The notes beneath the pieces are model-generated. The model searched no databases and was not told the origin of the DNA. It worked only from the letters and a program-made list of their open reading frames with translations. This document shows, piece after piece, positions 33,223 through 56,896 of a stretch of DNA of 64,000 nucleotides. This DNA comes from Candidatus Omnitrophota bacterium. Lineage in GTDB: Bacteria > Omnitrophota > Gorgyraeia > Duberdicusellales > 4484-171. The stretch's first letter is position 1; each line of letters starts with the position of its first letter. The position numbers were made by a program, and so were the translations under genes. Location of the stretch: NCBI GenBank assembly GCA_041652815.1, contig JBAZGN010000002.1:302261-366260 (forward strand). The letters run 5' to 3'.

Positions 33223-33337
33223 AAATGATGTATAACGCACGAATGAGCACGAAATGAGGGACGTTCCCCAAGGGGACACCCTGGTGTTGTATAGCATATT
33301 GGGATACGATGAGTAAGTATAGCATATATATAAAGAC

Positions 33338-33702
33338 GTTCGGCTGACCCTTGGTTCGTTTTATACAAGTCTCTCAAAAACATCCTTCCGTTGCTTTTGG
33401 TATGAAATATGCACCGCCCGCTTGGGCGGGCTTGGTGGTTGGCGCATTCACCGCTCGCCCCGCCTTGGGCGGGGACTTCGCTGCCTCGCTCGCTGGGCCG
33501 CTCGCTCTCTCAAGCAGTCTTGCCTCGCGCTCCCTGCGCCGCTAGGGCGGCTCCGGGGCTTGGCAAGCCTGCGGAACCACGTTTGTCCCGCGGTCGTAGC
33601 GTTTTGATACCCTTCCTCAGGCACCCGCTTTCGTCGGGCTTTCGCGCTTCGCGCAAATTTTTTCCTTTTCAATAAATCCTTTTCGGCTGGCGGCGGGGGA
33701 AA
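33338..33702 (+). repeat. GC-rich long repeat A, copy A1 (inverted copy at 50698..51053)
   Basis: ~360 bp with near-identity to the reverse complement of 50698..51053 apart from a divergent ~50-bp middle; contains hairpins gcccgcttgggcgggc and ccccgccttgggcgggg; starts at core cgttcggctg. Confidence 0.85.
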
Positions 33703-34180
33703 GGGGGGTAAAGCCCTCCTCAAGCAGGCGCCATCGTCGGGGTATTGTTTTGCCTTAGTAAAGGCAAAACACCCCGCCAAACCATCCCCCGACCACCCAG
33801 CTGTCGCAGCCGGGCGGCTTCAATCGCCTTTGGCGATTTTCGCTCCACCCTTTATGCGCCAGCTTTCCCCTCAGCGGAAAAAGAAACCTGTATATTTGGT
33901 TTTTTTCAAATCCCCACCCACCCAACAGTCACAGTCGGGCGGCTCCAATCTGTCGATTTCCGCATCGCCCTTTATGTGCCTGTTTTCCCCCTAAGAAATA
34001 ATACGCTATAACCTGGATTCTCCTTTCATTTCTTTTCATTCTACATCCCACCCAGCGCTTCGCGCTTCCTCATTTGTCAAGGATACTACGGCTTCCTTCC
34101 CCGAAGGGGCAGGACTTCCGTTCCTCCTTGACAAACGAGCCTCTCTGGATGTTTTAAATAAAAAAATGAAAGGAGGTGTT
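33703..34180 (+). repeat. GC-rich structured non-coding block with two tandem ~85-bp units (U1 33786..33878, U2 33911..33993) and long hairpin ttgtcaagga...tccttgacaa
   Basis: Units cccacccaRcaGtcRcagYcgggcggctYcaatc...ccctttatgYgcc; hairpin gttttgccttagtaaaggcaaaac; no credible ORF; GC far above window average. Confidence 0.7.
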
Positions 34181-35622: not shown

Positions 35623-35799
35623 ATGGCACAACATAAGAAAAAAGGCGGCGTTACCCGAAAAATCACCAAGACTGGCGATTATACTTATTACGTAACCATT
35701 CCCGCGGAATATATCGAGGAGTTGGGCTGGCGCTGTAAACAAAAGGTATTGGTTAAACTTTTAGGGAAAAAAGTGGTTATTGAGGATTGGAGGGGATAG
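35623..35799 (+). CDS. small AbrB/MazE-like (swapped-hairpin) DNA-binding protein, 58 aa (below track threshold)
   Basis: MAQHKKKGGVTRKITKTGDYTYYVTIPAEYIEELGWRCKQKVLVKLLGKKVVIEDWRG; TIP..I..LG...G..V pattern of SpoVT/AbrB domain. Confidence 0.5.
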   Translation: MAQHKKKGGVTRKITKTGDYTYYVTIPAEYIEELGWRCKQKVLVKLLGKKVVIEDWRG

Positions 35800-35886
35800 A
35801 ATTGCCCTTCTCACTCAGGGTTGTTTGGATCATTTAAATGGTGTATAATCAACTAATATTTCCTAATTTTAAGGAGAAGATAGCTA

Positions 35887-40792: not shown

Positions 40793-40953
40793 TAATTCTA
40801 ATTCGGTGGGCACGCACGTAATTATTTACAATTAGGTCTCCAGAATTTCAGAATTTTTCAGATGTTTTGGCGATAGAGATTATCGAAAACATCGAGGTTG
40901 GGTTGGAGAGCTTTAAGAGGATTATTGAGAAATTAAATAAGTAGGCACCTTAA

Positions 40954-42450: not shown

Positions 42451-42656
42451 AGTGCCGTAAATTATGGAGGTTTTTATGCCCGACGGAGGATTTTTAGTTA
42501 AGTTTGACGGTAAAGAAGCGTTCAGGTGCTATGAGATAAGTTTTTCTTATGATTCGTTTACATACCGCATTAACAACGAAGAGCCTAAAGAATTTCCCAA
42601 GGAAGGTATTGGGAAAATAGAAATAATCCTCGAATAACCTGCAACAGTAAAAAAGC

Positions 42657-43577: not shown

Positions 43578-43652
43578 TAAATTGTGAGTTTTCTTGCCAC
43601 CCTAAGCGTGAGAAGGTATAATAATACTGGTTGTAGGGGGGGGGTGAAATTT

Positions 43653-43910
43653 ATGAGTGACAATATCAATTTTGAAGAAATCAAAAAAGAAATCAGAAAA
43701 CTTATCTCTGAAATTGCTGAAATTCCAGAAGAAGAAATCAAAGATGATGCCAGATTTGCCGAAGACTTAGGTATTGACAGTATGATGGCCTTGGAAGTTG
43801 TTGCAGGTATTGAGAAAAAATACAAAGTAGTCATCCCTGAGGCAGAAATTCCCATCATAAGGTCGCTCCAAAACGTTTACGATTTACTAGGAAAACTGTT
43901 AAATAAATAA
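43653..43910 (+). CDS. acyl carrier protein
   Basis: DLGIDSMMALE phosphopantetheine-attachment motif; ATG 43653 (track ORF 43584 N-extended). Confidence 0.7.
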   Translation: MSDNINFEEIKKEIRKLISEIAEIPEEEIKDDARFAEDLGIDSMMALEVVAGIEKKYKVVIPEAEIPIIRSLQNVYDLLGKLLNK

Positions 43911-43911
43911 T

Positions 43912-45012: not shown

Positions 45013-45024
45013 AGGAGGATATAA

Positions 45025-47157
45025 ATGAATACATATTCATTACCACCATTAATCATTTCCTTATTGCTTTTTTCTTTAGGAATTTTTGTTTTTTTAAAAA
45101 ATAAAAGTAGTTCTTTAAATCGAGTATTCTTCTATTTGTGTTCTGTAAGCTCAATATGGTTATTTTTCTATTCGCTGGCATATAATACATCCGTTGAAGG
45201 AAAAGCGTTAACATTACTGAAAATAGGTTATTGCGGCGTAGTATTCATATCGATAACTTATTTTCATTATGCTGTATCCTTTTTAAGGATGAAAAAAATG
45301 CGTCCTGTTGTTTTCGCGTCATATTTTATTGGTATAGGTTGGATTTTGACTATATTCTTTACGCCATATTTTATGAGCGGAGTTTATAAATATTTTTGGG
45401 GATATTATCCTAAGGCTGGAATACTTCATCCTATTTTCTTAACTTTTTTTATAGGTTTGTTATCTTTCTCAATGGTTTTATATTCCTATTTCCTCTTTTT
45501 TAAAAAAGCTCTTTCTGCTATAGAAAAAATTCAGGTTAAATATATATTTTTGGCGTTTGCAATTTACAATTTAGCATGCATAGATTTTGTTCCTAATTAC
45601 GGGATAAGTATTTATCCATTTGGCTGTATTCCGACATTCTTTTTTCTCCTAATTTTTAGCTTCACAATAATTAAATATCGTCTAATGGATATCCGAATCT
45701 TTATCACTCGCGCGACTATCTTTATTTTTGTCTATACCTTTGTTTTGGGGTTGCCTTTATGGTTGGGATTTGCAACGAACCAATGGTTATGGGCAGTATT
45801 ATTAGTAGGTATTTTGTCGGCTATTGGCCCTTTTGGTTATAGCCACTTACGCCAACAGATTGAGAATGTTATCTTCAAGGAACGGCAGCGTTTGCAGGAA
45901 TATTTAAGGCATGCGGCTAAACGTATAGCCCAAATAAGCGATTTGCCTACTTTATGGCAAGCGCTCATTCAAGAGGCACGCAAAGCAGTTGATCCGGAAT
46001 TTGTTGAGCTCTATATTTTATCAAAAGAGGATAAGGCTTTTGTCTTAAATCAAAATAGTATCTTAGGCGATGCCCCTCATAACATTAAACAAATCTCTTT
46101 AGACTCTTTATTAATTAAAAACCTTATCCGGCATAAAAGAACAATACTTGTAGAAAGCTCTTTTGGATTGAATTTACCTCTGGAAACCATTGCCGTTGCC
46201 TTTTTCGCGGAAGGCGAGCTTTTTGGATTTCTGTTGTTAGGGCCAAAGCCCAAAAAAGCGCTTTATAACGAAGTTGACTTTGTTACCTTTGATATTTTCT
46301 CTTCCCAAGCTTCGCTCGCTATTGAAAATGCTAAACATTTTCAGGAGCTAAAACACTCTCAATTAGAACTGCTTCGCCAGGAAAACTTAAAATTCGTCCA
46401 GGTATTAGTTAAAGGCTTGGCGCACGAAATCCTTAATCCTTTGACTCCCCTGATGCATAGGATTGAGGATTTGGAGGGCGAGTCTTTGTTGAAATTATAT
46501 GAAGTGTATGAAAATAATATCCAACAGCTTGGAGAAAAAGAAAGTCTGAAATTTAAAGAATCCCTCTTAGGGTTACGCGACTCAACCAAATCATTAAAAA
46601 ATAACGCTCAGCATATCCACTTAATTGTTGATATGCTCAATAAAATGCAAAAAGGCGATGAGACAACCATAGGTCCGTTAGACTTGAAATCATTTCTTAA
46701 AGATGTTGTGCCGATGTTAGCCTTAGAAGTTGAGCCGCATATACAAGAAGGAATAACTGTTAATTGTGATATTGCGAATAATATCCATCCCATAAGAGGA
46801 AACCCCACGTTGTTTAAACAAATTTTTATCAACTTATATAAGAATTCTTGCGAAGCAATGAGAAATTTTCCTACTAAAATAATCAATATTTCCTGTAAAC
46901 TAGATGCGCAAAACTCAAAAGAAGCCTTGATTGAGTTTTCAGATACCGGTCCGGGCATATCTCCCGCGATTCTTTCAAAAATATTTACCCATGGTTTTAC
47001 TACTAAAGGCACAAAAGGTTCGGGTATTGGTTTAAGCCAGTGTAAAGCAATAATTGAAAAATTCGGCGGCACGATAAATATAGAATCTAAACAAAACCAG
47101 GGAACAAAATTCATTATCAAATTACCTATTTTGGGGGTGGGAAAAAATGTTAGTTAA
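45025..47157 (+). CDS. sensor histidine kinase with N-terminal polytopic membrane domain and GAF-like region
   Basis: ~7 TM helices, HisKA H-box LAHEILNPLTP, HATPase_c motifs (N-box INLYKNSCEAM, G-boxes DTGPGI, GSGIGLS). Confidence 0.8.
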   Translation: MNTYSLPPLIISLLLFSLGIFVFLKNKSSSLNRVFFYLCSVSSIWLFFYSLAYNTSVEGKALTLLKIGYCGVVFISITYFHYAVSFLRMKKMRPVVFASYFIGIGWILTIFFTPYFMSGVYKYFWGYYPKAGILHPIFLTFFIGLLSFSMVLYSYFLFFKKALSAIEKIQVKYIFLAFAIYNLACIDFVPNYGISIYPFGCIPTFFFLLIFSFTIIKYRLMDIRIFITRATIFIFVYTFVLGLPLWLGFATNQWLWAVLLVGILSAIGPFGYSHLRQQIENVIFKERQRLQEYLRHAAKRIAQISDLPTLWQALIQEARKAVDPEFVELYILSKEDKAFVLNQNSILGDAPHNIKQISLDSLLIKNLIRHKRTILVESSFGLNLPLETIAVAFFAEGELFGFLLLGPKPKKALYNEVDFVTFDIFSSQASLAIENAKHFQELKHSQLELLRQENLKFVQVLVKGLAHEILNPLTPLMHRIEDLEGESLLKLYEVYENNIQQLGEKESLKFKESLLGLRDSTKSLKNNAQHIHLIVDMLNKMQKGDETTIGPLDLKSFLKDVVPMLALEVEPHIQEGITVNCDIANNIHPIRGNPTLFKQIFINLYKNSCEAMRNFPTKIINISCKLDAQNSKEALIEFSDTGPGISPAILSKIFTHGFTTKGTKGSGIGLSQCKAIIEKFGGTINIESKQNQGTKFIIKLPILGVGKNVS

Positions 47158-47644
47158 AATCCTAATTGTTGACGATGATTTAGAAGTATTAAATTCATTA
47201 GGCAAAATATTTACCACTTTAATGAAGGGGTATCTGGTGCTTAACGCAACTTCTGCTAACGCTGGTTTAAGTATGTTAAAAGAACAAAGGCCTGATATCG
47301 TGATTGTAGATGTCCGGCTTGGGCCTGCTTCAGGAATGGATTTGATTGCAGATTATTGCCAGTGGATAAGCAGCCAAGGGGGCTATAAGCCAATTTTTAT
47401 CGTGATTACTGCTTATGATGACGCAGTAGCAAAGAAAAGAGCCGAAGAATTTAAGGTTGACGCTTTTTTAATGAAACCATTTAGCAAGGAAACTATACTA
47501 CATGCAGTTATTGACGGGGTATGCAAGATTTTACATCGAGAGCTAAATATTCTTGATGAAATGCGCAATCACTATAAAATGATATTAGATAAGATTAGCA
47601 CATTGGATAAGAAATTAAATGGCGAAGAGGGTAACCATGAGTAA
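47147..47644 (+). CDS. single-domain response regulator receiver protein
   Basis: ILIVDDD, IVDVRL (phospho-Asp), conserved K region. Confidence 0.65.
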   Translation: MLVKILIVDDDLEVLNSLGKIFTTLMKGYLVLNATSANAGLSMLKEQRPDIVIVDVRLGPASGMDLIADYCQWISSQGGYKPIFIVITAYDDAVAKKRAEEFKVDAFLMKPFSKETILHAVIDGVCKILHRELNILDEMRNHYKMILDKISTLDKKLNGEEGNHE

Positions 47645-48014
47645 AATATTGATAGCAGACGATGAAAAAGAAATTTCTGAAATGATTGGAACGTCACTGC
47701 GCCGCTCGGGATATGAAGTTTTTTCTGCTTTAGATGGGAAAACAGCGATAGAAACTGCGAAATGCGAAAACCCCGACGTAATTTTACTTGATCTGCGTTT
47801 TCCTAAACCCGGCCTGGATGGTATAGAAATATTAACAGCAATCAGGGAATTTAATAAAGAGGTAAAAGTTATTCTTACTTCTGGATTAGGCGCCGAGGCT
47901 AAAGAAATAGAGCAGGCGCAAGGATTAGGTATCAGTAAATTTCTGCCTAAGCCGTTAGATATCGCACAATTAAAAGAAACCCTCAGGGAAATGGTCGGTA
48001 ATAACACAGCTTAA
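47619..48014 (+). CDS. single-domain CheY-like response regulator receiver protein
   Basis: ILIADDE, ILLDLRFP, LTSGLG, K in FLPKP. Confidence 0.7.
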   Translation: MAKRVTMSKILIADDEKEISEMIGTSLRRSGYEVFSALDGKTAIETAKCENPDVILLDLRFPKPGLDGIEILTAIREFNKEVKVILTSGLGAEAKEIEQAQGLGISKFLPKPLDIAQLKETLREMVGNNTA

Positions 48015-48027
48015 TAGCGGTTTTAAA

Positions 48028-48312
48028 ATGTTATTTTTCCGCAAGAAAAAAGATGAAAAGTTAGAACAAGTAAAGCAAGAAATTTTCTCAAAAATTAAGC
48101 CCATATTATCTAAGATGCTTGAGGTAGATGAGGAAAAAATTACCCCAAAAGCCAGAATAGCCGAAGATTTAGGTGCAGACTCATTAGATTCAGTAGATAT
48201 TACAATAAAATTAGAAGAAGTATTTAATATTGAAATACTTGATGAAGACGTAGAAAAAATGAAAACCGTTGACGATATTCTTACTTATTTAGCACACAAT
48301 AAAGAAGGTTAA
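48028..48312 (+). CDS. acyl carrier protein-like (second copy)
   Basis: EDLGADSLDSVDI motif. Confidence 0.6.
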   Translation: MLFFRKKKDEKLEQVKQEIFSKIKPILSKMLEVDEEKITPKARIAEDLGADSLDSVDITIKLEEVFNIEILDEDVEKMKTVDDILTYLAHNKEG

Positions 48313-48314
48313 CT

Positions 48315-48739
48315 ATGTCCACCTGGCGAGATTTATTCCACACTTTAGCAAATAAGCAGAATTTGATAAGTATAGGCACAAAGGCAACCAAAGAAGCCCT
48401 TGAGGATTGCTTAAAAAAAGATGTGTCAAAAGAATTAAAAGAGAAAATACTTGATAATGCTGCAAATGGAAAATATTTTAGCCTATCTTTATCAGCGCAA
48501 TATTTCCGAAAACGAAAAACGTGCTTCTGTGGTTTTCAAGCAATTCGCCTCAAACAAGGGATAACTTTAACAAGAGCTGGCAATTTCTAATTCCTTCAGT
48601 TATGGAAAGAGGCGTGATCCTGGGCGTTTTATTGCAATACGGCATGATCGAAAGTGATGATATAAATTTAAAAATAACGGCGCAGGGGTATAACTTCTTG
48701 CAATACATAGGGTTAATTCCTTACCCTTCCCAGGTATAG
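48315..48739 (+). pseudogene. possible frameshifted gene (two overlapping ORFs 48315..48590 and 48521..48739)
   Basis: Consecutive same-strand ORFs overlapping by 70 nt in different frames; could be an authentic frameshift, a programmed shift or an assembly error. Confidence 0.3.
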
Positions 48740-48754
48740 ACGTATTAGTTTTAG

Positions 48755-49615
48755 ATGATGGAAGATAATTTTATGGAGATAATTCTTAATATAATATCGG
48801 GCGGTCTTTCTGGTGCGTTGTTAGTATGGCTTTTGCGTAATTGGATTTCTGAGCGCATAAAGGAAAGTATAAAGCACGAGTATGCTCAAAGGCTTGAAGC
48901 ATATAAGGCCGAGCTTAACTCCAATATGCAGTCAGCATTACACGAACATCAGTTGTATCAACTTCGAACATCCCTCTTTTTTGAACATCAACGCTTGGCG
49001 TTTGCTTCTATTCTTAGCCAGATTGCTGAAACTAAACAAAAGTGGTTTGATGTTGGGTATGATTCAGAGTTAGGATGGCAAGAACAAGCACCGGTACCTA
49101 CTGGCGAATACGACAAACTTAAAAAGTCCTATTATGATCATCAACTTTTTTTAGATCAGGATTGCATTTTCGCTCTTGACCTAGTGCTTGAGGCCATGCG
49201 CGATTCATTCCCAGTTCAAGATGGCGATGGCACTTTGCATCATAGAGATTGTGAAGAGCCTTACGAGCGGTTGGTATTTTTGCAAGAACGAGTTGCTCTA
49301 CTTTTTCAAGAAAAAATAGGGTTCAGGGTGTCGCAAGAAATGAAGATTGAACTCGCGCTTTTAGGGGCAATTAGATTGCTAAATCGTTATCATTTTAAAG
49401 ATATTGATTTGCCGGTTAAAGGATCTCTGAAATTAACTGCTGATGACAAAGCTTTTGATGCTGTAATCAAGGCGGGCAACAATAAGGTGGAATTGATTTC
49501 AAAGCTAACTGAATTTAGGAATCATCTGGAGAAGGAGGGTTTCTTTCATGATGCATGGGAAAAGGCAACCCGATGTCTTAACCTCCTTTCTGCCGAAAAG
49601 AAAACGCCCGCGTGA
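48755..49615 (+). CDS. hypothetical protein with N-terminal TM helix
   Basis: IILNIISGGLSGALLVWLL anchor; no family recognised. Confidence 0.4.
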   Translation: MMEDNFMEIILNIISGGLSGALLVWLLRNWISERIKESIKHEYAQRLEAYKAELNSNMQSALHEHQLYQLRTSLFFEHQRLAFASILSQIAETKQKWFDVGYDSELGWQEQAPVPTGEYDKLKKSYYDHQLFLDQDCIFALDLVLEAMRDSFPVQDGDGTLHHRDCEEPYERLVFLQERVALLFQEKIGFRVSQEMKIELALLGAIRLLNRYHFKDIDLPVKGSLKLTADDKAFDAVIKAGNNKVELISKLTEFRNHLEKEGFFHDAWEKATRCLNLLSAEKKTPA

Positions 49616-49710
49616 AATTTGAAGCGGTTGGCAAAGAGGTACGAGACTCGTTTGCCCCATTTTATTTAATATAAAACATAGATGATGGTGGTTGGGTAGA
49701 AGGAGATTAG

Positions 49711-50559
49711 ATGTCAGAAAAATCCGATTTAACTGTCCAAGAAGTCTTGGGTAATACAGCTTTGACCGATAAAATCCAAGTTTTATATCACTATACTAGC
49801 ATGGATTCATTAGAGAAAATAATGAAAAATGAGTGCATGCATTTTTCTCATATCTCATGGATGAATGACTATAGCGAATATGATTGGGGTTTAAATATGT
49901 TTCAAGAAAAATTGTTAAAAATGGTCAGCGACAAAACAAAGGAAATGGAAGAGAGTTTTAAGAAATTTATTAATATTATAAAAAAGGATAAGGATAAAGA
50001 TAATCCTTGTGTGGGATCGTTCACGGCTTTAAAAGAATCATTATCTCAATGGCGAGGCTATGGAGATAAGGGTGGTGGTATATGCATAGGTTTTGACGCA
50101 GGCCTTATGAAACGAATTTGCAAAGAAAATAATTTTATTATTGGAGATGTATTGTATGGTGATTCCTTTGATGGGTCTTGTTCTAATTTTCTTGCGAAAA
50201 TTTCTGGTTTTATTTCAGCATATACCAATGATCCAGCAGATGCTTTAGCCAGAGTCGGTATGCTTATTTCTCTTTTAGCTTGTTTTGTTAAACATGAAGG
50301 TTTTCAAGAAGAAAAAGAAATTAGAATAGCGATACCCTTCCCAGAAAAGTTACCCAACAAGCTTAAAGGTAAATTATATGTGCCTTATTTTTTGTTTGAT
50401 TTCAAAGAAAATTTTTCATCAATTTTTAAAGAAATTTGGGTTGGTCCTGCAGCTAACCAAGAACTCTTAGCTAAGTCTGTTTCGCTGCTTATAAATGAGT
50501 GTGGTTTGGATGATTCTTGTAAAATCTATAAATCCAATATACCATACAGAATAATATAA
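49711..50559 (+). CDS. DUF2971-family protein
   Basis: N-terminal LYHYTSMDSLEKIMKNE...SHISWMNDYSE pattern typical of DUF2971. Confidence 0.55.
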   Translation: MSEKSDLTVQEVLGNTALTDKIQVLYHYTSMDSLEKIMKNECMHFSHISWMNDYSEYDWGLNMFQEKLLKMVSDKTKEMEESFKKFINIIKKDKDKDNPCVGSFTALKESLSQWRGYGDKGGGICIGFDAGLMKRICKENNFIIGDVLYGDSFDGSCSNFLAKISGFISAYTNDPADALARVGMLISLLACFVKHEGFQEEKEIRIAIPFPEKLPNKLKGKLYVPYFLFDFKENFSSIFKEIWVGPAANQELLAKSVSLLINECGLDDSCKIYKSNIPYRII

Positions 50560-50697
50560 TTACAAAATAATATTTAGGAATCAATAGTTCACTTTTCTCG
50601 GCAATCGCAGTCGTCCTGTTTCAATCCTTCGGATTTCCACAACGGACTTTGTGCGCTTGCCTTCACCCACATAAAGAAAGAGGAATAACACCTTAAT

Positions 50698-51053
50698 ATT
50701 TCCCCCGCCGCCAGCCGAAAAGGATTTATTGAAAAGGGAAAAAATTGCGCGAAGCGCAAAAGCCTGACGAAAGCGGGTGCCTTGAGGAAGGGTATCAAAA
50801 CGCTACGACCGCGGGATAAACGTGGTTCCGCAGGCTTGCCGAGCCCCGGAGCCGCCCTAGCGGCGCAGGGAGCGCGAGGCAAGACTGCTTGAGAGAGCGA
50901 GCGGCCCAGCGAGCGAGGCAGTGAGCCGAGCGGCAGCGAAGGCGAACGGAGACTCCACCACCCACCAAGCCCGCCCCAGCGGGCGGTGCATATTTCATAC
51001 CAAAAGCAACGGAAGGATGTTTTTGAGAGACTTGTATAAAACGAACCAAGGGT
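50698..51053 (-). repeat. GC-rich long repeat A, copy A2 (inverted relative to A1)
   Basis: Reverse complement matches 33338..33702; spurious ORFs in both copies translate to the same peptides (MVRFIQVSQKHPSVAFGMKYAPP...). Confidence 0.85.
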
Positions 51054-51230
51054 CAACCGAATGTGCGTATGCAGACTTTTTTTCCGGAATTTGAATTTTG
51101 CATAGATTTTTCCTGTCTAAAATATTTGCGCGCGCTTCAGAAAATATAAAATTAAATGGTTCAAAAAAGGCAAAAGAAATTCTTTTTTCCAGATGGGCCG
51201 AACCCACCGGCGGGGCGATTTTGATGTTTT
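51054..51230 (-). repeat. 177-bp repeat B, copy B1 (inverted copy of 55587..55764; contains miaB promoter + first 16 codons in reverse orientation)
   Basis: Reverse complement identical or nearly so to 55587..55764; abuts A2 at shared core cattcggttg. Confidence 0.85.
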
Positions 51231-51299
51231 CCGTCTTGCTCGCCTGCGCGGCTCGCAATCCGCACGCCAATTCCCGAATTGTCGTTAAAAATCAGAGGA

Positions 51300-51385
51300 G
51301 GAGAATTACCCCCACCCACCCAAAATTGTCTCACTGCTCGGGCTCCTGCGCCAGAGGCGCATCCGCTCCCTGCGCGACGAGCCAA
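51300..51385 (+). repeat. third copy (U3) of the ~85-bp GC-rich unit seen at 33786..33993
   Basis: cccccacccacccaaaattgtctcactgctcgggctcc ... ttccctcccctta parallels ccccacccacccaacagtcacagtcgggcggctcc ... ttttccccctaag. Confidence 0.55.
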
Positions 51386-51444
51386 TTCCCTCCCCTTAAT
51401 AATTTACCTTGACACATAGTGTAAAGTGCTGTAAAGTAACGACA

Positions 51445-51627
51445 ATGGAGAAAAGATATAATCTTAGCGAAGCGGCTAAAGAATTGGGTTTAACTCGTCA
51501 GGGCCTTTATTATTGGATAAAGAAGGGTTGGGCTACGCCTAAGCGAGATTATAAGGGGTATCCGGTTTTCACTGAAATTGATTTAAAAAAGATTAAAGAG
51601 TGGCGTGATAAGTTAGAGAATTTCTAA
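51445..51627 (+). CDS. small HTH DNA-binding protein, excisionase/AlpA/MerR-like (candidate recombination directionality factor)
   Basis: MEKRYNLSEAAKELGLTRQGLYYWIKKG helix-turn-helix; promoter-like cttgac...taaagt upstream; lies in the recombinase cassette. Confidence 0.5.
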   Translation: MEKRYNLSEAAKELGLTRQGLYYWIKKGWATPKRDYKGYPVFTEIDLKKIKEWRDKLENF

Positions 51628-53456
51628 TGGAAAATAAAGAAGCAGTTAGATATATTAACGATTTAATTCAAAATATCCTTCCTGGGGTGGCAATCGATAT
51701 CCATCAGCAAAACCATTTTAACTATTCTTTTAACGTCAAAAATAACGGAGAATCATGTAATATCATTTTCGGGCGCGATGATATGGATGATTTTGATAAA
51801 GCTCTGCAAAGTGATCATAACTCTGATTATTATCGTGGATTAGAGGGGAGTATTAAATTTAAAATTTATATCTCATTAGGAAAAGCTGGTCTTATCCCTA
51901 AATTTCCGATTGCTAAACAAATTTTGGATGAAAAGCGAGATTGGCATAATGATGTTATGGTCCATTTTGTTCGAGAAGATTGGTTTTATAAGGTTTTAGA
52001 GGTCGGACTTAAAGACCTAAAAATGTTTCTGGAAGATATTATAGAAAAACATGGTCCTCAATCAGAGATTGAAAATGAACTGGAACATATCGAAGGATTA
52101 TTGTCCTATTACAATAAACATAAAAGTTTTGAGGAAAGAGGAGCCTCTGACGTTAGTCTGGGTTATCTGAAAGCGGCAGCTATTGCCGTGGTTCTTAAAA
52201 AAGAAAAAGAGTGTCAAGAAATAAAAATTCCACGCGTTTTGCAAACTAAAAATAAAGAAATCTATGATATTGTTGATGAACTAAGAAAAGATTTTTTTCT
52301 ACAGACAAAAATGCCAGATTGCGTGTATGATTATGCTGAAAATATTAATTTAGGTCATGGGAGGAAAGAAGATGAATTTCAGATGGTCAATATCCCTTGC
52401 GGGCCTTTAGCAAAACAGACATGCGATTTGAAAACAAAAATTGATCAGGATTTTTCTAAGAAAAATATTTTTATTGATATCCCATATACTAACTATGAAG
52501 ATTGTGAATTAGCTTTAAGAGAATTATTGAAAGAATTTGGGTTTAACCCGGTCGTCGCTAAAGACAGGTTAACTTGCAATGCAGTCCTTTGTAAGGTTTG
52601 CAAATTAGTAAAAATATGTAGATTTGGAATTGTAGACATATCTTCTGCAAGTAATAGTGTTGCTTATGAATATGGATTAATGCATGGATTAGGCATGAAA
52701 GTTTGTCTTTTGTTACGTACAGAGAGTGAAAAGTTTACTGATATAGAAGGATTGGAACATATCTCTTACTCGGGGTTAACTAGCCTTAAGATTGCAGTTT
52801 CAAGGTGGATTCTAGATAATATTGATGACATTAATCGTTCTTTAGTGGAAGAATTTATTTCAAAAAATGAGAGCTTACTCAAAGAAAATGGGGATACACC
52901 TTTGCAACTCCTATTACCTAAATCCATTATTGAATCGTCAAGAGAAGTAGGGTTGCAACCTGTTGACTCAAAAATTCTTGAAATATTGGGGGACATTATT
53001 ATTGCAAAGGAAGATGTGGGAATGATTGTAGAAACCATAGCAGAAGTTATAAAAAATGCAGAAAAATATAAAATTTCTCAAGAGGATGTTTTTGAATCAT
53101 TAGATGTGTTGGAATCAAGATATTTTTTGAAAATTTTAAAACATCTTGGTGATCCAAAAACCTATCATCTTAGTATTTCGATATCCGGATTTCTTAAGTA
53201 TTGTGAATTATATTTAAGAAACTTTGGAGAAATAGTAAAAAGTATAGCCTATGAGATATTAAAAAATAATATTATGTCCAGCAAGGAGATATCTCAAAAA
53301 GTTAATTGTAAGCCAATAGTAGCATATGCTTTATTCAAGTTTTTAGAGGAAAATGACTATATAATGGCTTCAGAACATGCGATAACGCAAGATATTGTAA
53401 TTTACGACCTTAAAGGCGATGGTAAAAGATGGTTCAATGATGTTCTCAATTCTTAA
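51627..53456 (+). CDS. hypothetical 609-aa protein with central nucleoside 2-deoxyribosyltransferase-like (NDT/TIR-like Rossmann) domain
   Basis: FIDIPY...FGIVDISSASNSVAYEYGLMHGLGMKVCLL resembles the NDT motif D..S.G...E.GyA.A.GKPV with conserved Glu; N- and C-terminal domains unrecognised. Confidence 0.45.
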   Translation: MENKEAVRYINDLIQNILPGVAIDIHQQNHFNYSFNVKNNGESCNIIFGRDDMDDFDKALQSDHNSDYYRGLEGSIKFKIYISLGKAGLIPKFPIAKQILDEKRDWHNDVMVHFVREDWFYKVLEVGLKDLKMFLEDIIEKHGPQSEIENELEHIEGLLSYYNKHKSFEERGASDVSLGYLKAAAIAVVLKKEKECQEIKIPRVLQTKNKEIYDIVDELRKDFFLQTKMPDCVYDYAENINLGHGRKEDEFQMVNIPCGPLAKQTCDLKTKIDQDFSKKNIFIDIPYTNYEDCELALRELLKEFGFNPVVAKDRLTCNAVLCKVCKLVKICRFGIVDISSASNSVAYEYGLMHGLGMKVCLLLRTESEKFTDIEGLEHISYSGLTSLKIAVSRWILDNIDDINRSLVEEFISKNESLLKENGDTPLQLLLPKSIIESSREVGLQPVDSKILEILGDIIIAKEDVGMIVETIAEVIKNAEKYKISQEDVFESLDVLESRYFLKILKHLGDPKTYHLSISISGFLKYCELYLRNFGEIVKSIAYEILKNNIMSSKEISQKVNCKPIVAYALFKFLEENDYIMASEHAITQDIVIYDLKGDGKRWFNDVLNS

Positions 53457-53471
53457 TATCAGGCAATGAAT

Positions 53472-53546
53472 ATGTTTATAGGGATTTATATTAGAGTCTC
53501 AACCGAAGACCAAGCGTAGGAGAATTATTCTCTTGAAGTGCAATGA
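53472..53546 (+). pseudogene. fossil fragment of a serine recombinase N-terminus
   Basis: MFIGIYIRVSTEDQA*..ENYSLEVQ* parallels the intact recombinase MKVVFYTRVSTEDQAKEGYSLEVQ at nucleotide level. Confidence 0.6.
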
Positions 53547-53610
53547 CAATATTTAATCTATTATGAAAAATTAAAGCAGAGTCGTAGGAATTGATTGAGG
53601 AGTGAAATAG

Positions 53611-54126
53611 ATGAAAAAGAAACTGTGGGATGAAAAAAAATATACTGATATTTTAAAAGAAGTTGGTGAGGGGCGTTATAAAATCTTCAATCCAGATGAC
53701 CCTTTTATATCGTATTTGTCGCCTGGATTATTTGATAAGTATGAATATAAATTTAACTGTGTTTGTCTTGCTACATCCACAACTATTGCTACTGCGACAG
53801 TGGATTACAAGTGCGAAGGGTTTCTTATACCGAAACATTCTCAGGTAGTGTTATGGCGCAATTTTCGCTATTGTACTCATGACGGATCACCTCACCTTAA
53901 TGCAGATGATAATATTATATTTCCTGACCAATCTGGCGATGTATGGAAAGTTTCTAAAACAGATGCCTACGATCATTATGTCGCAATTGCTTCATGGGCA
54001 GGACTTCAGACTATCACATCGGTCTATCATTTACCCGATCAACCTTGTGGTTTGTATCCGCAGTATATTGAGAAGGGCGCAAACGTGCCAGTGAAATTTG
54101 TTAAAGTTGAAAGCGATAAACCATGA
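53611..54126 (+). CDS. hypothetical 171-aa protein
   Basis: RBS gaggagtg; no family recognised; immediately upstream of and overlapping the recombinase start. Confidence 0.4.
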   Translation: MKKKLWDEKKYTDILKEVGEGRYKIFNPDDPFISYLSPGLFDKYEYKFNCVCLATSTTIATATVDYKCEGFLIPKHSQVVLWRNFRYCTHDGSPHLNADDNIIFPDQSGDVWKVSKTDAYDHYVAIASWAGLQTITSVYHLPDQPCGLYPQYIEKGANVPVKFVKVESDKP

Positions 54127-55772
54127 AAGTAGTTTTTTACACTCGCGTATCAACCGAAGATCAAGCTAAAGAAGGCTATTCGCTTGAGGTCCAAAGGGAA
54201 TATCTTGAATCTTTTGCTGAACGTGAAGGTTTTGAAATCTTCAAAGTTTACTGTGATGATGGTATAAGCGCTTATTCAACACGCAGACCTGCGTTACAGG
54301 GGTTACTTGCTGACGCGAAGGCAAAGCGGTTTGAGTTAGTGCTGGTTTATAAAATAGACAGGTTTAGCCGGAATCTTAAAGACTTACTGATTTTGGTTGA
54401 TGAGCTTTTGGGCTATGGCGTGGGGTTTAAGTCTGCCACAGAGCCGTTTGATTCTACAACGTCAGCCGGAAAGTTGATGTTTCAGCAATTGGGTAGCTTT
54501 GCGGAGTTCGAGCGCAATAGGTTAGCGGAGCGTGTATTCCCCGGCATGATTAAAGGTGTTCAGGCTGGGAATTGGCAGGGCGCTCGGTATGCGCCATTTG
54601 GGTATCACTATAACAAGCCGGAAAAGCTTCTTGAGGTGGTTGATGATGAGGCAAAGGTTGTCCGGTTGATTTATCAGATGTATCTTGAAGGCAGAAGCAC
54701 GCGGGATATTGTTAATTATTTGAATCGCAATGGTTTTAAATCCCGCGCCGGTTTAAAGTTTTACGATAAGTTTATCGGTGATGTTTTGAAGAACCGCATT
54801 TATACCGGCCAACTTATTTGGAATAAAAAGCATTACGACAAGAACCAGAAAACCAAAAAGCATTTCAAATATGTCAAAAATGACCCTGCCAAAATTATTA
54901 TTTCCCAAGGCCGTCACCAGCCGATTATTTCCTTGGAAGATTTTGAGAAAGCTCAAAATCTTCTTGCCAATAAAAAACGCACTTGGCGGCCAAGAGTAAG
55001 AAATCAGGAATATCTTTTATCTGGCTTGTTAAGTTGTGCCAAGTGTAATTCAAATTATTGCGGCAACCTTTCCATATCTAATCATCATACCGGTATCAAG
55101 AAGCGCTGGTATCGTTGTTCCGGTCCGCTGTCCCACGGCATTAGGTGCAAGAACCGCGCCGTCAAAGCCGCCGAAGTTGAAGCCTTGACTGACAGTGTTG
55201 TTGCTCGTTTAGTGGAAAGTGAGGGGTTTAAAGACAGCCGATGGACGACCGTGACTGGCACAAATGGGAGTTTTTCCGCGTTTTTTGACCAAAACCCTGC
55301 CAGTCTTCGCCAAGAGCTTGTTGAAAACAAGCAAAAACAAGGAAAGCTTACTGACGCTTACCTGGATAATTTGCTTGGCGAAGACGTTTTTCATGCTAAG
55401 ATGGATGAGCTTCGTTTGCGCGAAGATGAGCTGAAGAAAAACCTTGCCGGCATTGAACTTTTGGCGCTTGAGCGTGAGCGCTCCGAGGGGTATCTGAACA
55501 GGGTTAAGGACTTTCTTGACGGTTACGACGAAGGGCTTACCAAGGTAGGTTTTGAACACAAAAGGCAGATGGCCGGACTGCTTTTTAAAAACATCAAAAT
55601 CGCCCCGCCGGTGGGTTCGGCCCATCTGGAAAAAAGAATTTCTTTTGCCTTTTTTGAACCATTTAATTTTATATTTTCTGAAGCGCGCGCAAATATTTTA
55701 GACAGGAAAAATCTATGCAAAATTCAAATTCCGGAAAAAAAGTCTGCATACGCACATTCGGTTGTCAAATGA
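54123..55772 (+). CDS. large serine recombinase (resolvase/invertase catalytic domain + recombinase domain + zinc ribbon)
   Basis: YTRVSTEDQ with catalytic Ser, LVVYKIDRFSRN motif, C-rich zinc-ribbon region (CAKCNSNYCG...CSGP...C); final ~60 codons lie inside repeat B2. Confidence 0.85.
   Translation: MKVVFYTRVSTEDQAKEGYSLEVQREYLESFAEREGFEIFKVYCDDGISAYSTRRPALQGLLADAKAKRFELVLVYKIDRFSRNLKDLLILVDELLGYGVGFKSATEPFDSTTSAGKLMFQQLGSFAEFERNRLAERVFPGMIKGVQAGNWQGARYAPFGYHYNKPEKLLEVVDDEAKVVRLIYQMYLEGRSTRDIVNYLNRNGFKSRAGLKFYDKFIGDVLKNRIYTGQLIWNKKHYDKNQKTKKHFKYVKNDPAKIIISQGRHQPIISLEDFEKAQNLLANKKRTWRPRVRNQEYLLSGLLSCAKCNSNYCGNLSISNHHTGIKKRWYRCSGPLSHGIRCKNRAVKAAEVEALTDSVVARLVESEGFKDSRWTTVTGTNGSFSAFFDQNPASLRQELVENKQKQGKLTDAYLDNLLGEDVFHAKMDELRLREDELKKNLAGIELLALERERSEGYLNRVKDFLDGYDEGLTKVGFEHKRQMAGLLFKNIKIAPPVGSAHLEKRISFAFFEPFNFIFSEARANILDRKNLCKIQIPEKKSAYAHSVVK
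55587..55764 (+). repeat. 177-bp repeat B, copy B2 (recombinase 3' end + miaB promoter and first 16 codons)
   Basis: Inverted copy of 51054..51230; ends at core cattcggttg inside the miaB start. Confidence 0.85.
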
Positions 55773-56896
55773 ACGTCAGGGACAGCGAAGCTCTGCTTGG
55801 ATTATTTTTGGAGAAGGGATACAAGAGCGCAGATAATCCAAAAGACGCGGATGTGATTTTGCTTAATACCTGCGCCGTTCGTGCGCATGCCGAGCATCGT
55901 GTTAGGTCAATATTAGGCTCATATAAAAAGCTGTCAGCTTTCAGTCGTCAGTCATCAGCCAGCAAGAAAAATAAAGCTGAAAGCCGGAAGCTGAGGGCTG
56001 ACAGCTGTAAGATAATCGGTCTAATCGGCTGTATGGCAGCTAACAGCGGCAAAGAGATATTTGAACGAATGCCGCACGTGAATTTGATTGTATCGCCGGC
56101 AAAATTACATAAAATTCCCGCGTATATAGAAAAAATAAAGAAAGAAAATATAAGAATAATCGATTTGGAGGATAAAGAAAGGGAAGAGGATTTTTATAAT
56201 GCTTCTTACCGCGTAAAACCAGGCTATGCGCAAGTCGTAATTTCTACAGGATGTTCCAACTATTGCTCTTATTGCGTTGTGCCGAGCGTTCGTGGGGAGT
56301 TACGTTTGCGAAAGCCAAAGGATATTATTGCGGAAGTTAAAAGAAATGTTTCCCTGGGGATTAAAAAGATTACTTTGCTTGGGCAAAATGTTAATGATTA
56401 TCGCGATAAGCAGGGTGTAAATTTCGTTGATTTGTTGAAAATGGTTGAAGAGCTTGACGGGGTTGAGGAAATTGATTTTCTTACACCACACCCTAAAAAC
56501 ACCACAAAAGAATTATTTAAACTAATGGCTAAATCAAAAAAGATTAGAAAGTATTTACATTTGCCATATCAGTCCGGTTCTGATAAAATCTTACGCCTTA
56601 TGCATAGAGGTTATACCAAGAAGGAATATCTCGCGCTAGTAGACGACTATAAAACAATAGTCGGTGGCACCATTGGAACAGATATTATAGTTGGTTTCCC
56701 AACGGAAACAGAAGAAGATTTCCTGCATACTAAAGACATTCTGGAAAAAGTAAGGTTTATGGGCGCTTATATATTCAAATATTCTCCACGTCCCGGAACG
56801 CATGCGCAGAAATTAAAAGATGATGTGCCGCAGAGAGTTAAAGAGAAAAGGCACGCGGAGCTTTTGGAATTACAAAAGAAAATATCCAATGCATAA
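55715..56896 (+). CDS. miaB: tRNA methylthiotransferase (radical SAM MTTase, MiaB-like)
   Basis: N-terminal TFGCQMN, radical SAM CxxxCxxC (CSNYCSYC), TRAM C-terminus; low-complexity insert SRQSSASKKNKAESRKLRADS. Confidence 0.85.
   Translation: MQNSNSGKKVCIRTFGCQMNVRDSEALLGLFLEKGYKSADNPKDADVILLNTCAVRAHAEHRVRSILGSYKKLSAFSRQSSASKKNKAESRKLRADSCKIIGLIGCMAANSGKEIFERMPHVNLIVSPAKLHKIPAYIEKIKKENIRIIDLEDKEREEDFYNASYRVKPGYAQVVISTGCSNYCSYCVVPSVRGELRLRKPKDIIAEVKRNVSLGIKKITLLGQNVNDYRDKQGVNFVDLLKMVEELDGVEEIDFLTPHPKNTTKELFKLMAKSKKIRKYLHLPYQSGSDKILRLMHRGYTKKEYLALVDDYKTIVGGTIGTDIIVGFPTETEEDFLHTKDILEKVRFMGAYIFKYSPRPGTHAQKLKDDVPQRVKEKRHAELLELQKKISNA

What the first reader, a model, noticed from the sequence alone, without database searches (positions are those of the whole stretch)
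55587..55764. Promoter and first 16 codons of miaB lie inside a mobile-element repeat and are duplicated 4.5 kb away in inverted orientation
The miaB start MQNSNSGKKVCIRTFG and ~130 bp of upstream sequence form repeat B2. The inverted copy B1 (51054–51230) reads MQNSNSGKKVCIRTFG* into repeat A. The intact miaB ORF is therefore reconstituted by element-borne sequence, as seen when integrative elements target gene ends. The recombinase also borrows this repeat for its C-terminus.
Basis: seen in the sequence. Interest (0 to 1): 0.55.

Follow-up and report, generated by a model that had tools for sequence, protein, structure and literature searches.

The report
Flippable serine-recombinase cassette rebuilding miaB's start
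The 177-base repeat is real: it is the conserved tail end of a large serine recombinase gene that also supplies the start of the tRNA-modification gene miaB, and its inverted second copy makes a 4.4 kb defence-type gene cassette that is found in both orientations, an arrangement shared by dozens of related elements and not described in the papers I could search.

Summary
In detail: 51054-51230 and 55588-55764 are a perfect 177-nt inverted repeat. Five independent assemblies break at its edges.

The repeat (B) is not a captured host promoter. It is the conserved 3' end of the large serine recombinase (LSR) gene. It covers the last zinc-ribbon strands, homologous to SPbeta integrase, plus a linker. 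In another frame it carries miaB's ATG and 16 codons. It ends at a TG in TTCGGNTG (the T-F-G-C codons).

In 80 related loci:
- The LSR abuts a miaB/mtaB body in 34.
- The inverted tail copy is present in about 43.
- The distal copy is always joined to the same conserved arm. In the window this is repeat A: the last ~20-25 LSR codons, hairpins and a terminator.

The displaced native miaB start (MSKYSIYIKTFG, 33309-33346) is joined to a second A copy. This marks 22.4 kb of inserted DNA.

A second MAG of the same strain has the cassette flipped, giving a 566-aa LSR instead of 549 aa. Several related elements also occur in both states. miaB stays intact either way.

A 27-nt intragenic core at the repeat's inner edge is invariant even at synonymous sites, and it is a recombination breakpoint across the family.

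Verdict: a new variant combining an LSR integrative element with an inversion switch. The mechanism is inferred.

The parts
33309..33346 (+). Displaced native 5' end of miaB (ATG...MSKYSIYIKTFG), ending at TTCGGCTG and joined to repeat A2. This is the attL-type junction.
   Evidence: The same structure is seen in L128, L170 and L172. The N-terminus resembles that of relative P0149, MLKIYIKTFGCQMN.
33347..33702 (+). Repeat A2. This is the P' arm: the last ~20 codons of the full-length LSR, then GC-rich hairpins and a terminator-like hairpin.
33703..34180 (.). GC-rich non-coding extension with two tandem structured modules. It contains the G-rich motif at 33912-33923 on the minus strand.
   Evidence: Not in Rfam.
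50590..51053 (-). Repeat A1 plus its extension. This is the P' arm in inverted orientation: 19 codons (DPWFVLYKSLKNILPLLLV*), conserved hairpins, and the terminator TTGCGCTTCGCGCAA+T6 at 50759-50745.
51054..51230 (-). Repeat B1. This is the inverted copy of the LSR tail / miaB-start module. Together with A1 it forms an intact attP-type junction (TTCGGTTG|ACCC).
51231..51345 (-). S module. The 27-nt core is split here: its left half CTGATTTTTA (51286-51295) is separated from its right half (51214-51230) by two covarying hairpins. The G-rich motif lies at 51310-51321.
51409..51437 (+). Best sigma-70-like promoter (TTGACA-17-TAAAGT), in front of the cassette genes.
   Evidence: A consensus match only.
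51445..51627 (+). 60-aa MerR/excisionase-like HTH protein.
51627..53456 (+). 609-aa cargo protein with no Pfam or PADLOC match.
53470..53560 (+). Remnant of a second LSR N-terminus (pseudogene fragment with stop codons).
   Evidence: Family D1 (72% to 54136-54203). Sequence.
53611..54126 (+). 171-aa cargo protein. A homologue sits directly upstream of the LSR in L090.
54123..55772 (+). Large serine recombinase, 549-aa form. Its last 2 codons and its stop codon lie beyond B2, inside the miaB body.
55578..55604 (+). 27-nt core CTGCTTTTTAAAAACATCAAAATCGCC (codons LLFKNIKIA). It is invariant at synonymous sites. It marks the inner edge of the repeat and is a family-wide breakpoint.
55588..55764 (+). 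Repeat B2. It holds LSR codons 489-547 and, in another frame, the miaB ATG (55715) plus 16 codons. It ends at the TG of TTCGGTTG (55757-55764), which is the attR-type junction.
55715..56896 (+). miaB (UPF0004 + radical SAM). The body from codon 17 onward is host DNA.

Best explanation
What it is. Repeat B is the 3' module of a large serine recombinase (LSR) gene. The gene belongs to a small integrative cassette family that inserts at the conserved T-F-G-C(Q/K)(M/V)N codons at the start of MiaB/MtaB-type methylthiotransferase genes.

Shown:
- The module encodes the last beta-hairpin of the LSR zinc-ribbon domain plus a linker.
- In another frame it carries an ATG and 16 codons that replace the host's miaB start.
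- It ends at a TG, which I take to be the crossover dinucleotide.
- The full-length LSR reading frame natively continues across that TG for about 20-25 more codons into the element's other arm. In the window this arm is repeat A. It is followed by conserved hairpins and a terminator.
- Joining to miaB therefore truncates the enzyme to 549 aa.
- The native miaB start was displaced to 33309-33346 and fused to a second A copy. About 22.4 kb (33347-55764) is therefore inserted DNA, consisting of a restriction-modification / defence-type island plus the LSR cassette.
- B1|A1 is a second, intact attP-type junction in inverted orientation. B1 and B2 thus bracket a 4357-nt cassette.
- The cassette is found in both orientations in two assemblies of the same strain and in related elements.

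Inferred:
- Recombination between the two junctions flips the cassette. The LSR could do this at the TG or at the 27-nt core at the inner edge. RecA could do it anywhere within the 177 nt.
- Because both ends carry the same module, miaB keeps a complete 5' end in either state.
- Flipping reconnects the recombinase body to B|A. This restores the full-length 566-aa enzyme and its own terminator.
- Across the family the same recombinase body is found joined to different B modules and different right-hand arms, with breakpoints at the 27-nt core and at the TG. The system therefore behaves like a multi-site inversion and exchange system built around the recombinase's own 3' end.
For: Repeat and independent assemblies.

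LSR identity: Resolvase + Recombinase + Zn_ribbon domains. The profile aligns to SPbeta integrase 9dxh (E = 6.5e-33) through KNIKIA...FNFLF, reaching residue 536 of 545. The AF2 model places strands at FKNIKI and KRISF.

The tail is conserved in homologues at 60-71% identity. Pairwise diversity by codon position is 0.15/0.11/0.28 in B and 0.20/0.14/0.36 in the extension beyond the TG.

Family census:
- The inverted tail copy is present in about 43 of 80 loci.
- The repeat always ends at TTCGGNTG.
- The LSR-proximal flank is C[QK][MV]N in 34 loci.
- The distal flank is ACCCTTGG... (the P' arm) in 23 loci.

Canonical attL and attR without the inverted copy are seen in L128. The window's attL is at 33309-33346.

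Both orientations:
- The predicted 566-aa product exists exactly as MCK9615281.1, and the 549-aa form as MFA5304963.1.
- Accession order puts the LSR next to DUF2971 in the first MAG and next to miaB in the second.
- L114, the closest relative, has miaB on the S side of the cassette.
- The L111-type cassette occurs as P0310 and as P0313/P0314. Clusters 1, 4 and 9 also hold both short and long forms with 99.8-100% identical bodies.

Inner-edge core:
- It is at least 97% conserved at third codon positions in 60 genes, against 35-75% in flanking codons.
- Identical bodies carry different tails, and the reverse also occurs.
- L175 and L111 differ by 1 mismatch in 10,070 nt up to the core, then by 38 in the next 160 nt.

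Precedent for an LSR integrating at the 5' end of a methylthiotransferase gene with in-frame rebuilding: phage JC1 and rimO (PMC9144972).
Against: - No read-level evidence for inversion. A 177-nt perfect repeat is longer than common k-mers, so an assembler could pick an orientation arbitrarily. Only one contig per orientation crosses the repeat for this strain.
- All ten loci with diverged repeat copies and both junctions resolved have the LSR next to miaB. Many copies may therefore be fixed.
- Differences between diverged copies are not biased to third codon positions, and one distal copy carries a stop. The distal tail copy may therefore not be under coding selection.
- Canonical serine integrases do not recombine an attP-type site with an attR-type site without a directionality factor.
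- Use of two different cores by one enzyme would be unusual.
- RecA-mediated exchange at the 27-nt core cannot be excluded.
- No empty site in a close relative was found. Relatives at 71-79% miaB identity have other islands there.
- How the inverted pair first arose is not explained.
Confidence: 0.6

Rival explanations
1. Plain integrative element with a fossil. One or more LSR elements integrated at miaB and rebuilt its start. The inverted B1|A1 module is a dead remnant of an earlier element or of a replication template-switch. The two orientations in databases are assembler choices or rare RecA events with no function.
For: Arrays and remnants are common at this locus:
- An LSR N-terminal pseudogene lies at 53470-53560.
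- Extra B and A copies occur in L116 and L167.
- LSR-less islands with attL-type junctions occur in L170 and L172.

Diverged repeat pairs are all in the LSR-to-miaB orientation. Differences between copies show no codon-position bias.
Against: - The inverted copy has the same outer and inner boundaries in subfamilies only 55-75% identical.
- It is kept at 84-100% identity within elements, while tails differ by about 25% between elements.
- It is always joined to the same conserved arm and flanked by a conserved structured S module.
- Both states recur in at least five lineages.
Confidence: 0.2
2. Assembly artefact. The inverted duplication, or at least the second orientation, is created by metagenome assembly through a repeat or by chimeric joining.
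For: The repeat (177 nt) exceeds k = 141 and k = 31. Most assemblies break at it. Only single contigs cross it.
Against: - Five independent datasets give identical unitigs. Their ends fall exactly at the repeat edges plus k-1. Both outer junctions, A|B and B|miaB, are each present.
- The same architecture with diverged, and therefore unambiguously assembled, copies is seen in at least 10 other loci.
- The duplication is therefore real. Only the orientation calls for perfect repeats remain open to this objection.
Confidence: 0.05
3. Phase-variable defence cassette. The point of inversion is to switch expression of the cargo (defence or toxin-antitoxin type genes), or read-through into miaB, on and off. 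The change in the recombinase C-terminus is a by-product.
For: Cargo between the repeats is variable and of defence type:
- RES
- MNT + HEPN
- PDC-S39
- GajB-like helicase
- RhuM / PDC-S05
- MBL nuclease

 All cassette genes point toward the LSR and miaB. The only strong promoter-like site lies inside the cassette.
Against: - The cassette carries its own promoter-like site, so flipping need not change cargo expression.
- The conserved, codon-constrained extension of the LSR beyond the crossover points to the recombinase itself as what is being switched.
- So does the invariant intragenic core.
- No expression data are available.
Confidence: 0.15
4. The long (566-583 aa) recombinase forms reflect excised circles or tandem arrays, where B is joined to the P' arm of the same or the next element, rather than flipped cassettes.
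For: B|P' is what an attP or a tandem junction would look like. Direct B|P' junctions exist in L116 and L167. Many long forms lie on short contigs.
Against: - In the MCK MAG, gene order after the LSR is DUF2971...HsdS, HsdM, DUF1016, 83-aa. This is the reverse of what a circle junction through A2 would give.
- L114 links the S side of the cassette to miaB directly.
- This rival may still explain some other long forms.
Confidence: 0.1

Closest known systems
Serine-integrase elements that integrate into the 5' end of a methylthiotransferase gene and rebuild it (Burkholderia phage JC1 in rimO; PMC9144972)
   Same: A large serine recombinase. The target is the conserved N-terminal coding region of a MiaB-family gene. 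An element-borne ATG keeps the gene in frame. The integrase gene lies next to, or overlaps, the target gene.
   Different: - JC1 is a 61-kb phage whose attP lies 41 bp upstream of its integrase. Here the elements are 2-8 kb cassettes with no phage genes.
- The recombinase is at most 31% identical to any phage integrase.
- The att crossover lies inside the recombinase reading frame.
- An inverted second copy of the junction is present.
SPbeta prophage integrase SprA/YokA (PDB 9dxh) and other large serine integrases (phiC31, Bxb1, A118)
   Same: The domain order is the same: resolvase catalytic domain, recombinase domain, zinc ribbon with a coiled-coil insert. The alignment runs to the very C-terminal hairpin.
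   Different: - Known integrases act on one attP x attB pair, give inert attL and attR sites, and need a directionality factor to reverse.
- Here the element arm mimics the host arm. In L128, 23 of 26 nt match by my own count on the sequences printed. The product sites therefore resemble the substrate sites.
- A roughly 55-aa family-specific tail straddles the crossover.
DNA inversion switches and shufflons (Hin/Gin/Cin/Pin; the Rci shufflon of R64; hsdS shufflons)
   Same: - Inverted repeats bracket a segment found in both orientations.
- A constant 5' gene part is joined to alternative 3' parts at a short core that is conserved inside the coding sequence.
- The recombinase is encoded at the locus.
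   Different: - Those systems use small serine invertases with a Fis enhancer, or tyrosine recombinases.
- Their repeats are 14-30 bp.
- They vary a tail-fibre, pilin or specificity gene.
- Here the enzyme is a large serine recombinase, the repeat is about 160-180 nt, and the gene being varied is the recombinase itself. Catalysis of inversion has not been shown.
Integration-dependent gene truncation (mycobacteriophage BPs/Brujita immunity; SSV1-type integrases split by integration). Recalled from memory, not tested here.
   Same: The att crossover lies inside a gene's 3' end. The free and integrated forms therefore encode proteins with different C-termini.
   Different: - Those are tyrosine-integrase systems. 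The truncated gene is a repressor or the whole integrase is split.
- None has an inverted spare copy that can restore the full-length gene in situ.
- A degradation tag at the long-form C-terminus (...ELAAL, ...LLLV) is only a guess.
dusA-specific integrase islands (PMC4482086)
   Same: Islands inserted in the 5' end of a tRNA-modification gene. They restore the 5' end and carry variable cargo.
   Different: Tyrosine integrases, direct repeats only, and no inversion.

Membership tests
Large serine recombinase (serine integrase) family | N-terminal resolvase catalytic domain with the serine nucleophile | tested here: met
   PF00239, E = 5.7e-38, residues 3-150. The motif YTRVSTEDQ has invariant S10.
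Large serine recombinase (serine integrase) family | Recombinase domain plus zinc-ribbon domain with a coiled-coil insert | tested here: met
   PF07508 (1.3e-23) and PF13408 (3.3e-09). Long helices at 396-471 in the AF2 model. Profile match to SPbeta integrase over residues 68-536.
Large serine recombinase (serine integrase) family | Unidirectional attP x attB reaction with a 2-bp crossover | not testable with these tools
   A TG crossover is inferred from junction comparison. The position before TG is C in attL and T in attP and attR. No biochemistry is available.
Integrative element that targets and rebuilds a gene's 5' end | Recombinase gene at the junction, with element-borne in-frame replacement of the first codons | tested here: met
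   B2 supplies the ATG and 16 codons. The same junction is seen in 34 related loci.
Integrative element that targets and rebuilds a gene's 5' end | Displaced native 5' end at the other junction, with a shared core at both ends | tested here: met
   33309-33346, MSKYSIYIKTFG|A2. TTCGGYTG is present at 33339-33346 and 55757-55764. L128 shows the host promoter plus MKKIYIRTFG|P'.
Integrative element that targets and rebuilds a gene's 5' end | Empty target site in close relatives | tested here: inconclusive
   The nearest genomes (miaB 71-79% identical) carry other islands at the same site. The best match in GTDB representatives is 48%. The metagenome pattern scan found nothing.
Site-specific DNA inversion switch / shufflon | Inverted repeats flanking a segment | tested here: met
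   for the window. About 43 of 80 related loci.
Site-specific DNA inversion switch / shufflon | Both orientations present in natural populations | tested here: inconclusive
   Two MAGs of the same strain differ in orientation. Both states also appear in L114, in the pair P0310 and P0313/P0314, and in clusters 1, 4 and 9. There are no read-level counts, and perfect repeats can mislead assemblers.
Site-specific DNA inversion switch / shufflon | Short conserved crossover core at the constant/variable junction inside a gene | tested here: met
   The 27-nt core is invariant at synonymous sites. Breakpoints fall exactly there. That it is a crossover site is an inference.
Site-specific DNA inversion switch / shufflon | Small serine invertase (Hin/Gin type) or Rci-type tyrosine recombinase | tested here: not met
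   The only recombinase present is a 549/566-aa large serine recombinase.
Transposon or IS with terminal inverted repeats | DDE or other transposase, and a target-site duplication flanking the repeats | tested here: not met
   No transposase domain is found in the cassette. The outer flanks differ (…AAGGGT / TCAAATG…) with no direct duplication.

The most novel reading that the evidence does not exclude
The locus is a recombinase-driven shufflon in which the thing being shuffled is the recombinase's own 3' end.

Each B module encodes the last DNA-binding hairpin and tail of the enzyme. It is also physically the left arm of an att site. Recombination at the invariant 27-nt intragenic core, and at the TG core, reconnects one catalytic body to alternative tails with their attached sites.

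The element would thereby switch between truncated and full-length enzyme, and possibly between target specificities. It would also build cassette arrays (a serine-recombinase analogue of an integron) at the start of miaB. The conserved structured GC-rich modules (S and A) would be regulatory RNAs or accessory sites of this system.
Probability: 0.2. Interest if true: 0.85.

Novelty: new variant of a known kind. Interest (0 to 1): 0.68.

Why it matters
- It would add a natural example of a large serine recombinase working as a reversible invertase and cassette exchanger rather than a one-way integrase. In this example the product sites are regenerated because the element arm mimics the host arm.
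- It would show a recombinase gene that spans its own crossover site. Integration truncates the enzyme, and a built-in inverted spare copy can restore it.
- It marks the first codons of MiaB/MtaB genes as a hot spot where defence-type cassettes accumulate in Omnitrophota and other uncultured phyla.
- For genome engineering, a family of more than 1000 LSRs with a conserved, highly predictable target (TTCGGNTG in a universal gene motif), modular tails and possibly factor-independent reversibility is directly testable.

Tried and rejected
- **Rfam.** A scan of the whole window at gathering thresholds, and of the A/B1/S and A2 regions at E <= 10, found no family for repeat A or the S module. The only hit was a cobalamin riboswitch elsewhere. 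There are no tRNA or tmRNA genes in the window, so this is not a tRNA-targeting island.
- **Exact metagenome scan** with a 36-nt B pattern gave 0 hits.
- **Exact look-ups.** The look-ups of the 549-aa and 566-aa LSR products in the gene-position index both failed. The flipped contig could therefore not be read as DNA. Its structure was deduced from accession order instead.
- **IMG/VR scan** with the LSR alignment found no relative. Phage GenBank records are at most 31% identical. A phage origin was rejected.
- **S region versus repeat A.** I tested whether S is a diverged copy of A. Only weak matches appeared, so this was rejected.
- **Small protein from the distal copy.** I considered that it encodes an independent small protein, the C-terminal 85-90 aa of the LSR. 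No conserved start codon exists and one copy has a stop, so this is not favoured.
- **Guide RNA.** I considered that the structured modules guide target choice. The CCGAAGG hairpin resembles the reverse complement of the CCTTCGG core, but it does not covary with the core in the window, so this was dropped.
- **Frameshift site.** I considered a programmed frameshift at TTTTTAAAAA. The heptamer is not in a canonical slippery register.
- **Conserved upstream synteny.** I looked for it, to prove that the 22.4 kb is an insertion. None was found in relatives.
- **PADLOC and Pfam** gave nothing for the window's own 609-aa and 171-aa cargo proteins.
Full report
**1. The observation**

The window holds a perfect 177-nt inverted repeat: B1 at 51054-51230 and B2 at 55588-55764, 4357 nt apart.
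- B2 contains 127 nt upstream of the miaB ATG (55715) plus 16 codons and 2 nt.
- B1 read on the minus strand gives MQNSNSGKKVCIRTFG. It then meets a TGA created at its junction with repeat A.
- Repeat A (50699-51064) has an inverted partner at 33336-33702 with 93-98% identity.

The duplication is not an artefact of one assembly. Contigs from five other datasets are 100% identical to the window. They stop at the repeat edges plus k-1 bases. The inner segment appears as a 4639-nt unitig, which equals 4357 + 2x141. The upstream contig ends 141 nt into B1, and the miaB contig starts 141 nt before the end of B2.

The organism is an uncultured Candidatus Omnitrophota.

**2. What the repeat is**

Between the repeats lie, all on the plus strand:
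- a MerR/excisionase-like HTH gene
- a 609-aa gene and a 171-aa gene without family matches
- a fragment of a second recombinase N-terminus
- a large serine recombinase (LSR) with Resolvase, Recombinase and zinc-ribbon domains

The LSR reading frame runs through all of B2. The opposite is true:
- More than 1000 homologues exist. The best ~120, at 60-71% identity, cover the query to its end, with a consensus ...GLLFKNIKIAPAIGGAxPxKRISFSLFxPFNFLFSETE...KKSTSxPSAxR.
- Pairwise diversity in the first 32 codons of B is 0.15/0.11/0.28 at codon positions 1/2/3. This is a coding signature.
- A profile of the family aligns to the solved SPbeta integrase (9dxh, E = 6.5e-33) right through KNIKIA...FNFLF, up to residue 536 of 545.
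- An AlphaFold model places two strands there, at moderate confidence.

So B starts with the last hairpin of the zinc-ribbon domain. The final residues PSAVR*/HSVVK* of the homologues are simply the other-frame reading of the miaB motif F-G-C-Q-M-N.

**3. The family architecture**

I fetched 80 related loci from metagenomes.
- In 34 loci the LSR is directly followed by, and overlaps, a MiaB-type body. In two of these (L124, L125) the motif is C-K-V-N.
- In about 43 loci the LSR tail is repeated in inverted orientation 1.7-8.3 kb upstream, at 84-100% identity.
- In every case the repeat ends at TTCGGNTG.
- The proximal flank is the gene body (TCAAATGAA or CCAGATGAA). The distal flank is a conserved sequence, ACCCTTGGTT.GTT.T.TACAAG... 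In the window this is the start of the reverse complement of repeat A.
- In the LSR frame that flank reads DPW[FIL]xLYKxxKPFxFTxF..EL... for about 20-27 codons and then stops. Diversity by codon position is 0.20/0.14/0.36.
- Many database homologues are exactly such long forms, 566-583 aa.
- After the stop come GC-rich hairpins with compensatory changes and a terminator-like hairpin. In the window the terminator is at 50759-50745 on the minus strand.

Repeat A is therefore the native 3' end of the full-length recombinase gene, and the reading frame spans the crossover.

L128 shows the plain integrated form with no inverted copy. It has the host promoter plus MKKIYIRTFG joined to this arm, then cargo, then the LSR, then the element-borne MPKKVYIRTFG joined to CQMN. 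The last 26 nt of the element arm match the host arm at 23 positions, by my own count on the sequences printed. Product sites therefore resemble substrate sites.

In the window the corresponding left junction is at 33309-33346 (MSKYSIYIKTFG|A2). Everything from 33347 to 55764 is therefore inserted DNA. It includes a type I restriction-modification system, DUF1016, DUF2971 and other genes.

The base before TG is C in that left junction and T in B1|A1 and B2|miaB. This places the crossover at the TG. This step is an inference.

**4. Both orientations**

I built the product expected if the 4357-nt segment were flipped. It has 566 aa and ends ...HSVDPWFVLYKSLKNILPLLLV.
- That exact sequence exists as MCK9615281.1, on a 22,795-nt contig of another Omnitrophota MAG.
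- The window's 549-aa form is MFA5304963.1, on a 448,591-nt contig.
- Accession order in the first MAG is HTH(278)-609aa-171aa-LSR(281)-DUF2971(282)...HsdS-HsdM-DUF1016-83aa(299).
- In the second MAG it is 83aa(942)...DUF2971(959)-HTH-609aa-171aa-LSR(963)-miaB(964).
- The first order is a flipped cassette, not an excised circle.

Related elements show the same thing:
- The closest relative, L114 (LSR 76% identical), has miaB joined through a B copy to the S side of the cassette, with the LSR pointing away.
- Clusters at 90% identity hold the same recombinase (99.8-100% identical bodies and the same tail) ending either in a gene body or in a P' arm.
- The pair P0310 and P0313/P0314 corresponds to the two junctions of the L111 cassette.

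Caveats:
- Perfect repeats longer than k can be traversed arbitrarily by assemblers.
- All ten loci with diverged copies and both junctions visible are in the LSR-to-miaB state.

**5. The inner edge**

The inner boundary of the repeat is at the codons K-N-I-K-I-A in every subfamily. The 27 nt CTGCTTTTTAAAAACATCAAAATCGCC (window 55578-55604) are at least 97% conserved at every position in 60 distinct genes. This includes third codon positions. Neighbouring third positions are 35-75% conserved.

Several results mark this core as a breakpoint:
- Bodies that are 100% identical over 480 aa carry tails that differ by about 25% from that point on.
- Conversely, tails 95-99% identical sit on bodies 73-80% identical.
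- L175 and L111 share 10,070 nt with one mismatch up to the end of the core. They then differ at 38 of the next 160 positions and have different right-hand arms.

Both edges of B are therefore recombination breakpoints across the family. Whether the inner one is a second site-specific crossover site or a hot spot for homologous exchange at the only shared sequence cannot be decided here.

On the cassette side of the distal copy the core is split. Its left half (CTG[C/A]TTTTTA) is separated from its right half by about 47 nt. These form two hairpins with many compensatory changes between subfamilies. They are preceded by a G-rich motif, GGGTGGGYGGGG. This S module and repeat A are absent from Rfam, and their role is unknown.

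**6. Cargo and context**

Cargo between the repeats is variable and of defence or toxin-antitoxin type:
- RES
- MNT + HEPN
- DUF7380 + DUF4209 (PDC-S39)
- GajB-like helicase
- RhuM (PDC-S05)
- MBL-fold nuclease

Relatives with miaB 71-79% identical have other defence islands upstream of miaB. Some have displaced starts (MTKKIFIRSFG|, MNKKVYLKNFG|) joined to a different arm type about 9 kb away. One has an inverted A-like remnant.

The family has no close homologue in phage records or IMG/VR.

**7. Comparison with known systems**

- Integration of a serine-recombinase element into the 5' end of a MiaB-family gene, with in-frame rebuilding, is known for phage JC1 and rimO (PMC9144972).
- The dusA islands are the tyrosine-integrase analogue (PMC4482086).
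- The enzyme meets all tested criteria for a large serine recombinase.
- The locus resembles inversion switches and shufflons. It has inverted repeats, an intragenic conserved core, and a constant 5' part joined to alternative 3' parts. It fails their defining recombinase type.
- Literature searches for such an arrangement found nothing.

I therefore class it as a new variant of known kinds.

**8. Verdict**

The element-borne rebuilding of miaB is well supported.

The inverted copy is a conserved design feature that makes the cassette invertible without harming miaB. It also toggles the recombinase between a truncated and a full-length form. Catalysis, frequency and purpose of the inversion, and the role of the 27-nt core and of the structured modules, remain inferred or unknown.

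Noticed in passing
window 50590-51053 (- strand) and 33347-33702 (+ strand); L091-L128 P' arms: Repeat A is a conserved GC-rich (51-67% G+C) region of about 250-300 nt. It is a series of hairpins with clear compensatory changes between elements. It lies downstream of the long-form recombinase stop codon and ends in a terminator-like hairpin. It has no Rfam family. It could be a structured RNA or an accessory DNA region.
   Followed up: partly
window 51231-51345 (- strand); S sides of about 35 loci: A conserved structured module lies next to the distal repeat copy. It consists of a G-rich motif (GGGTGGGYGGGG), the left half of the 27-nt core, and two covarying hairpins of about 47 nt that split the core. 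Similar modules occur twice in 33703-34180. The function is unknown.
   Followed up: partly
window 53470-53560: A fragment of a second recombinase N-terminus (…IYIRVSTEDQA*ENYSLEVQ*…, 72% to 54136-54203) sits between the 609-aa and 171-aa genes. This suggests the cassette is a fusion of two older cassettes.
   Followed up: partly
window 33347-50589: A 17-kb segment lies between the inverted A copies. It carries an 83-aa ORF, a DUF1016 nuclease-like gene, a type I restriction-modification system (HsdM/S/R), DUF8370/8371, carrier-protein, epimerase, a histidine kinase with response regulators, and DUF2971. It looks like a defence / accessory island and could itself invert between the A copies.
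   Followed up: partly
L094, L096, L111, L122, L140, L150, L152, L161, L162; L170, L172: At least two further right-hand arm types follow TTCGGNTG (GCCGATGG... and ACCGTTGG...). In the recombinase frame they read GRWxxYxxxM... These arms also head LSR-less islands with displaced miaB starts. One recombinase family may therefore mobilise several island types in arrays.
   Followed up: partly
window 8746-8938 (+): A cobalamin riboswitch (RF00174, 92.5 bits), unrelated to the finding.
   Followed up: no
window 30997-31138 and 32297-32438; 15951-16098; 8540-8581 and 11672-11721: Other repeats in the window: a 142-nt direct repeat at 79%, a 40-nt inverted repeat pair 68 nt apart, and a 42-nt A/C-rich direct repeat family. 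None was examined.
   Followed up: no
window 55715-56896: This miaB ORF is only 393 aa and matches just the UPF0004 and radical-SAM domains. No TRAM-domain match was reported. The next ORF overlaps its end. Close relatives are of similar length.
   Followed up: no
L176 981-4034 (- strand): A reverse transcriptase (RVT_1) with a bAvd-like gene and an Lcl_C-domain gene lies a few kb from a related LSR cassette. This looks like a diversity-generating retroelement. An IS110-family transposase is also nearby.
   Followed up: no
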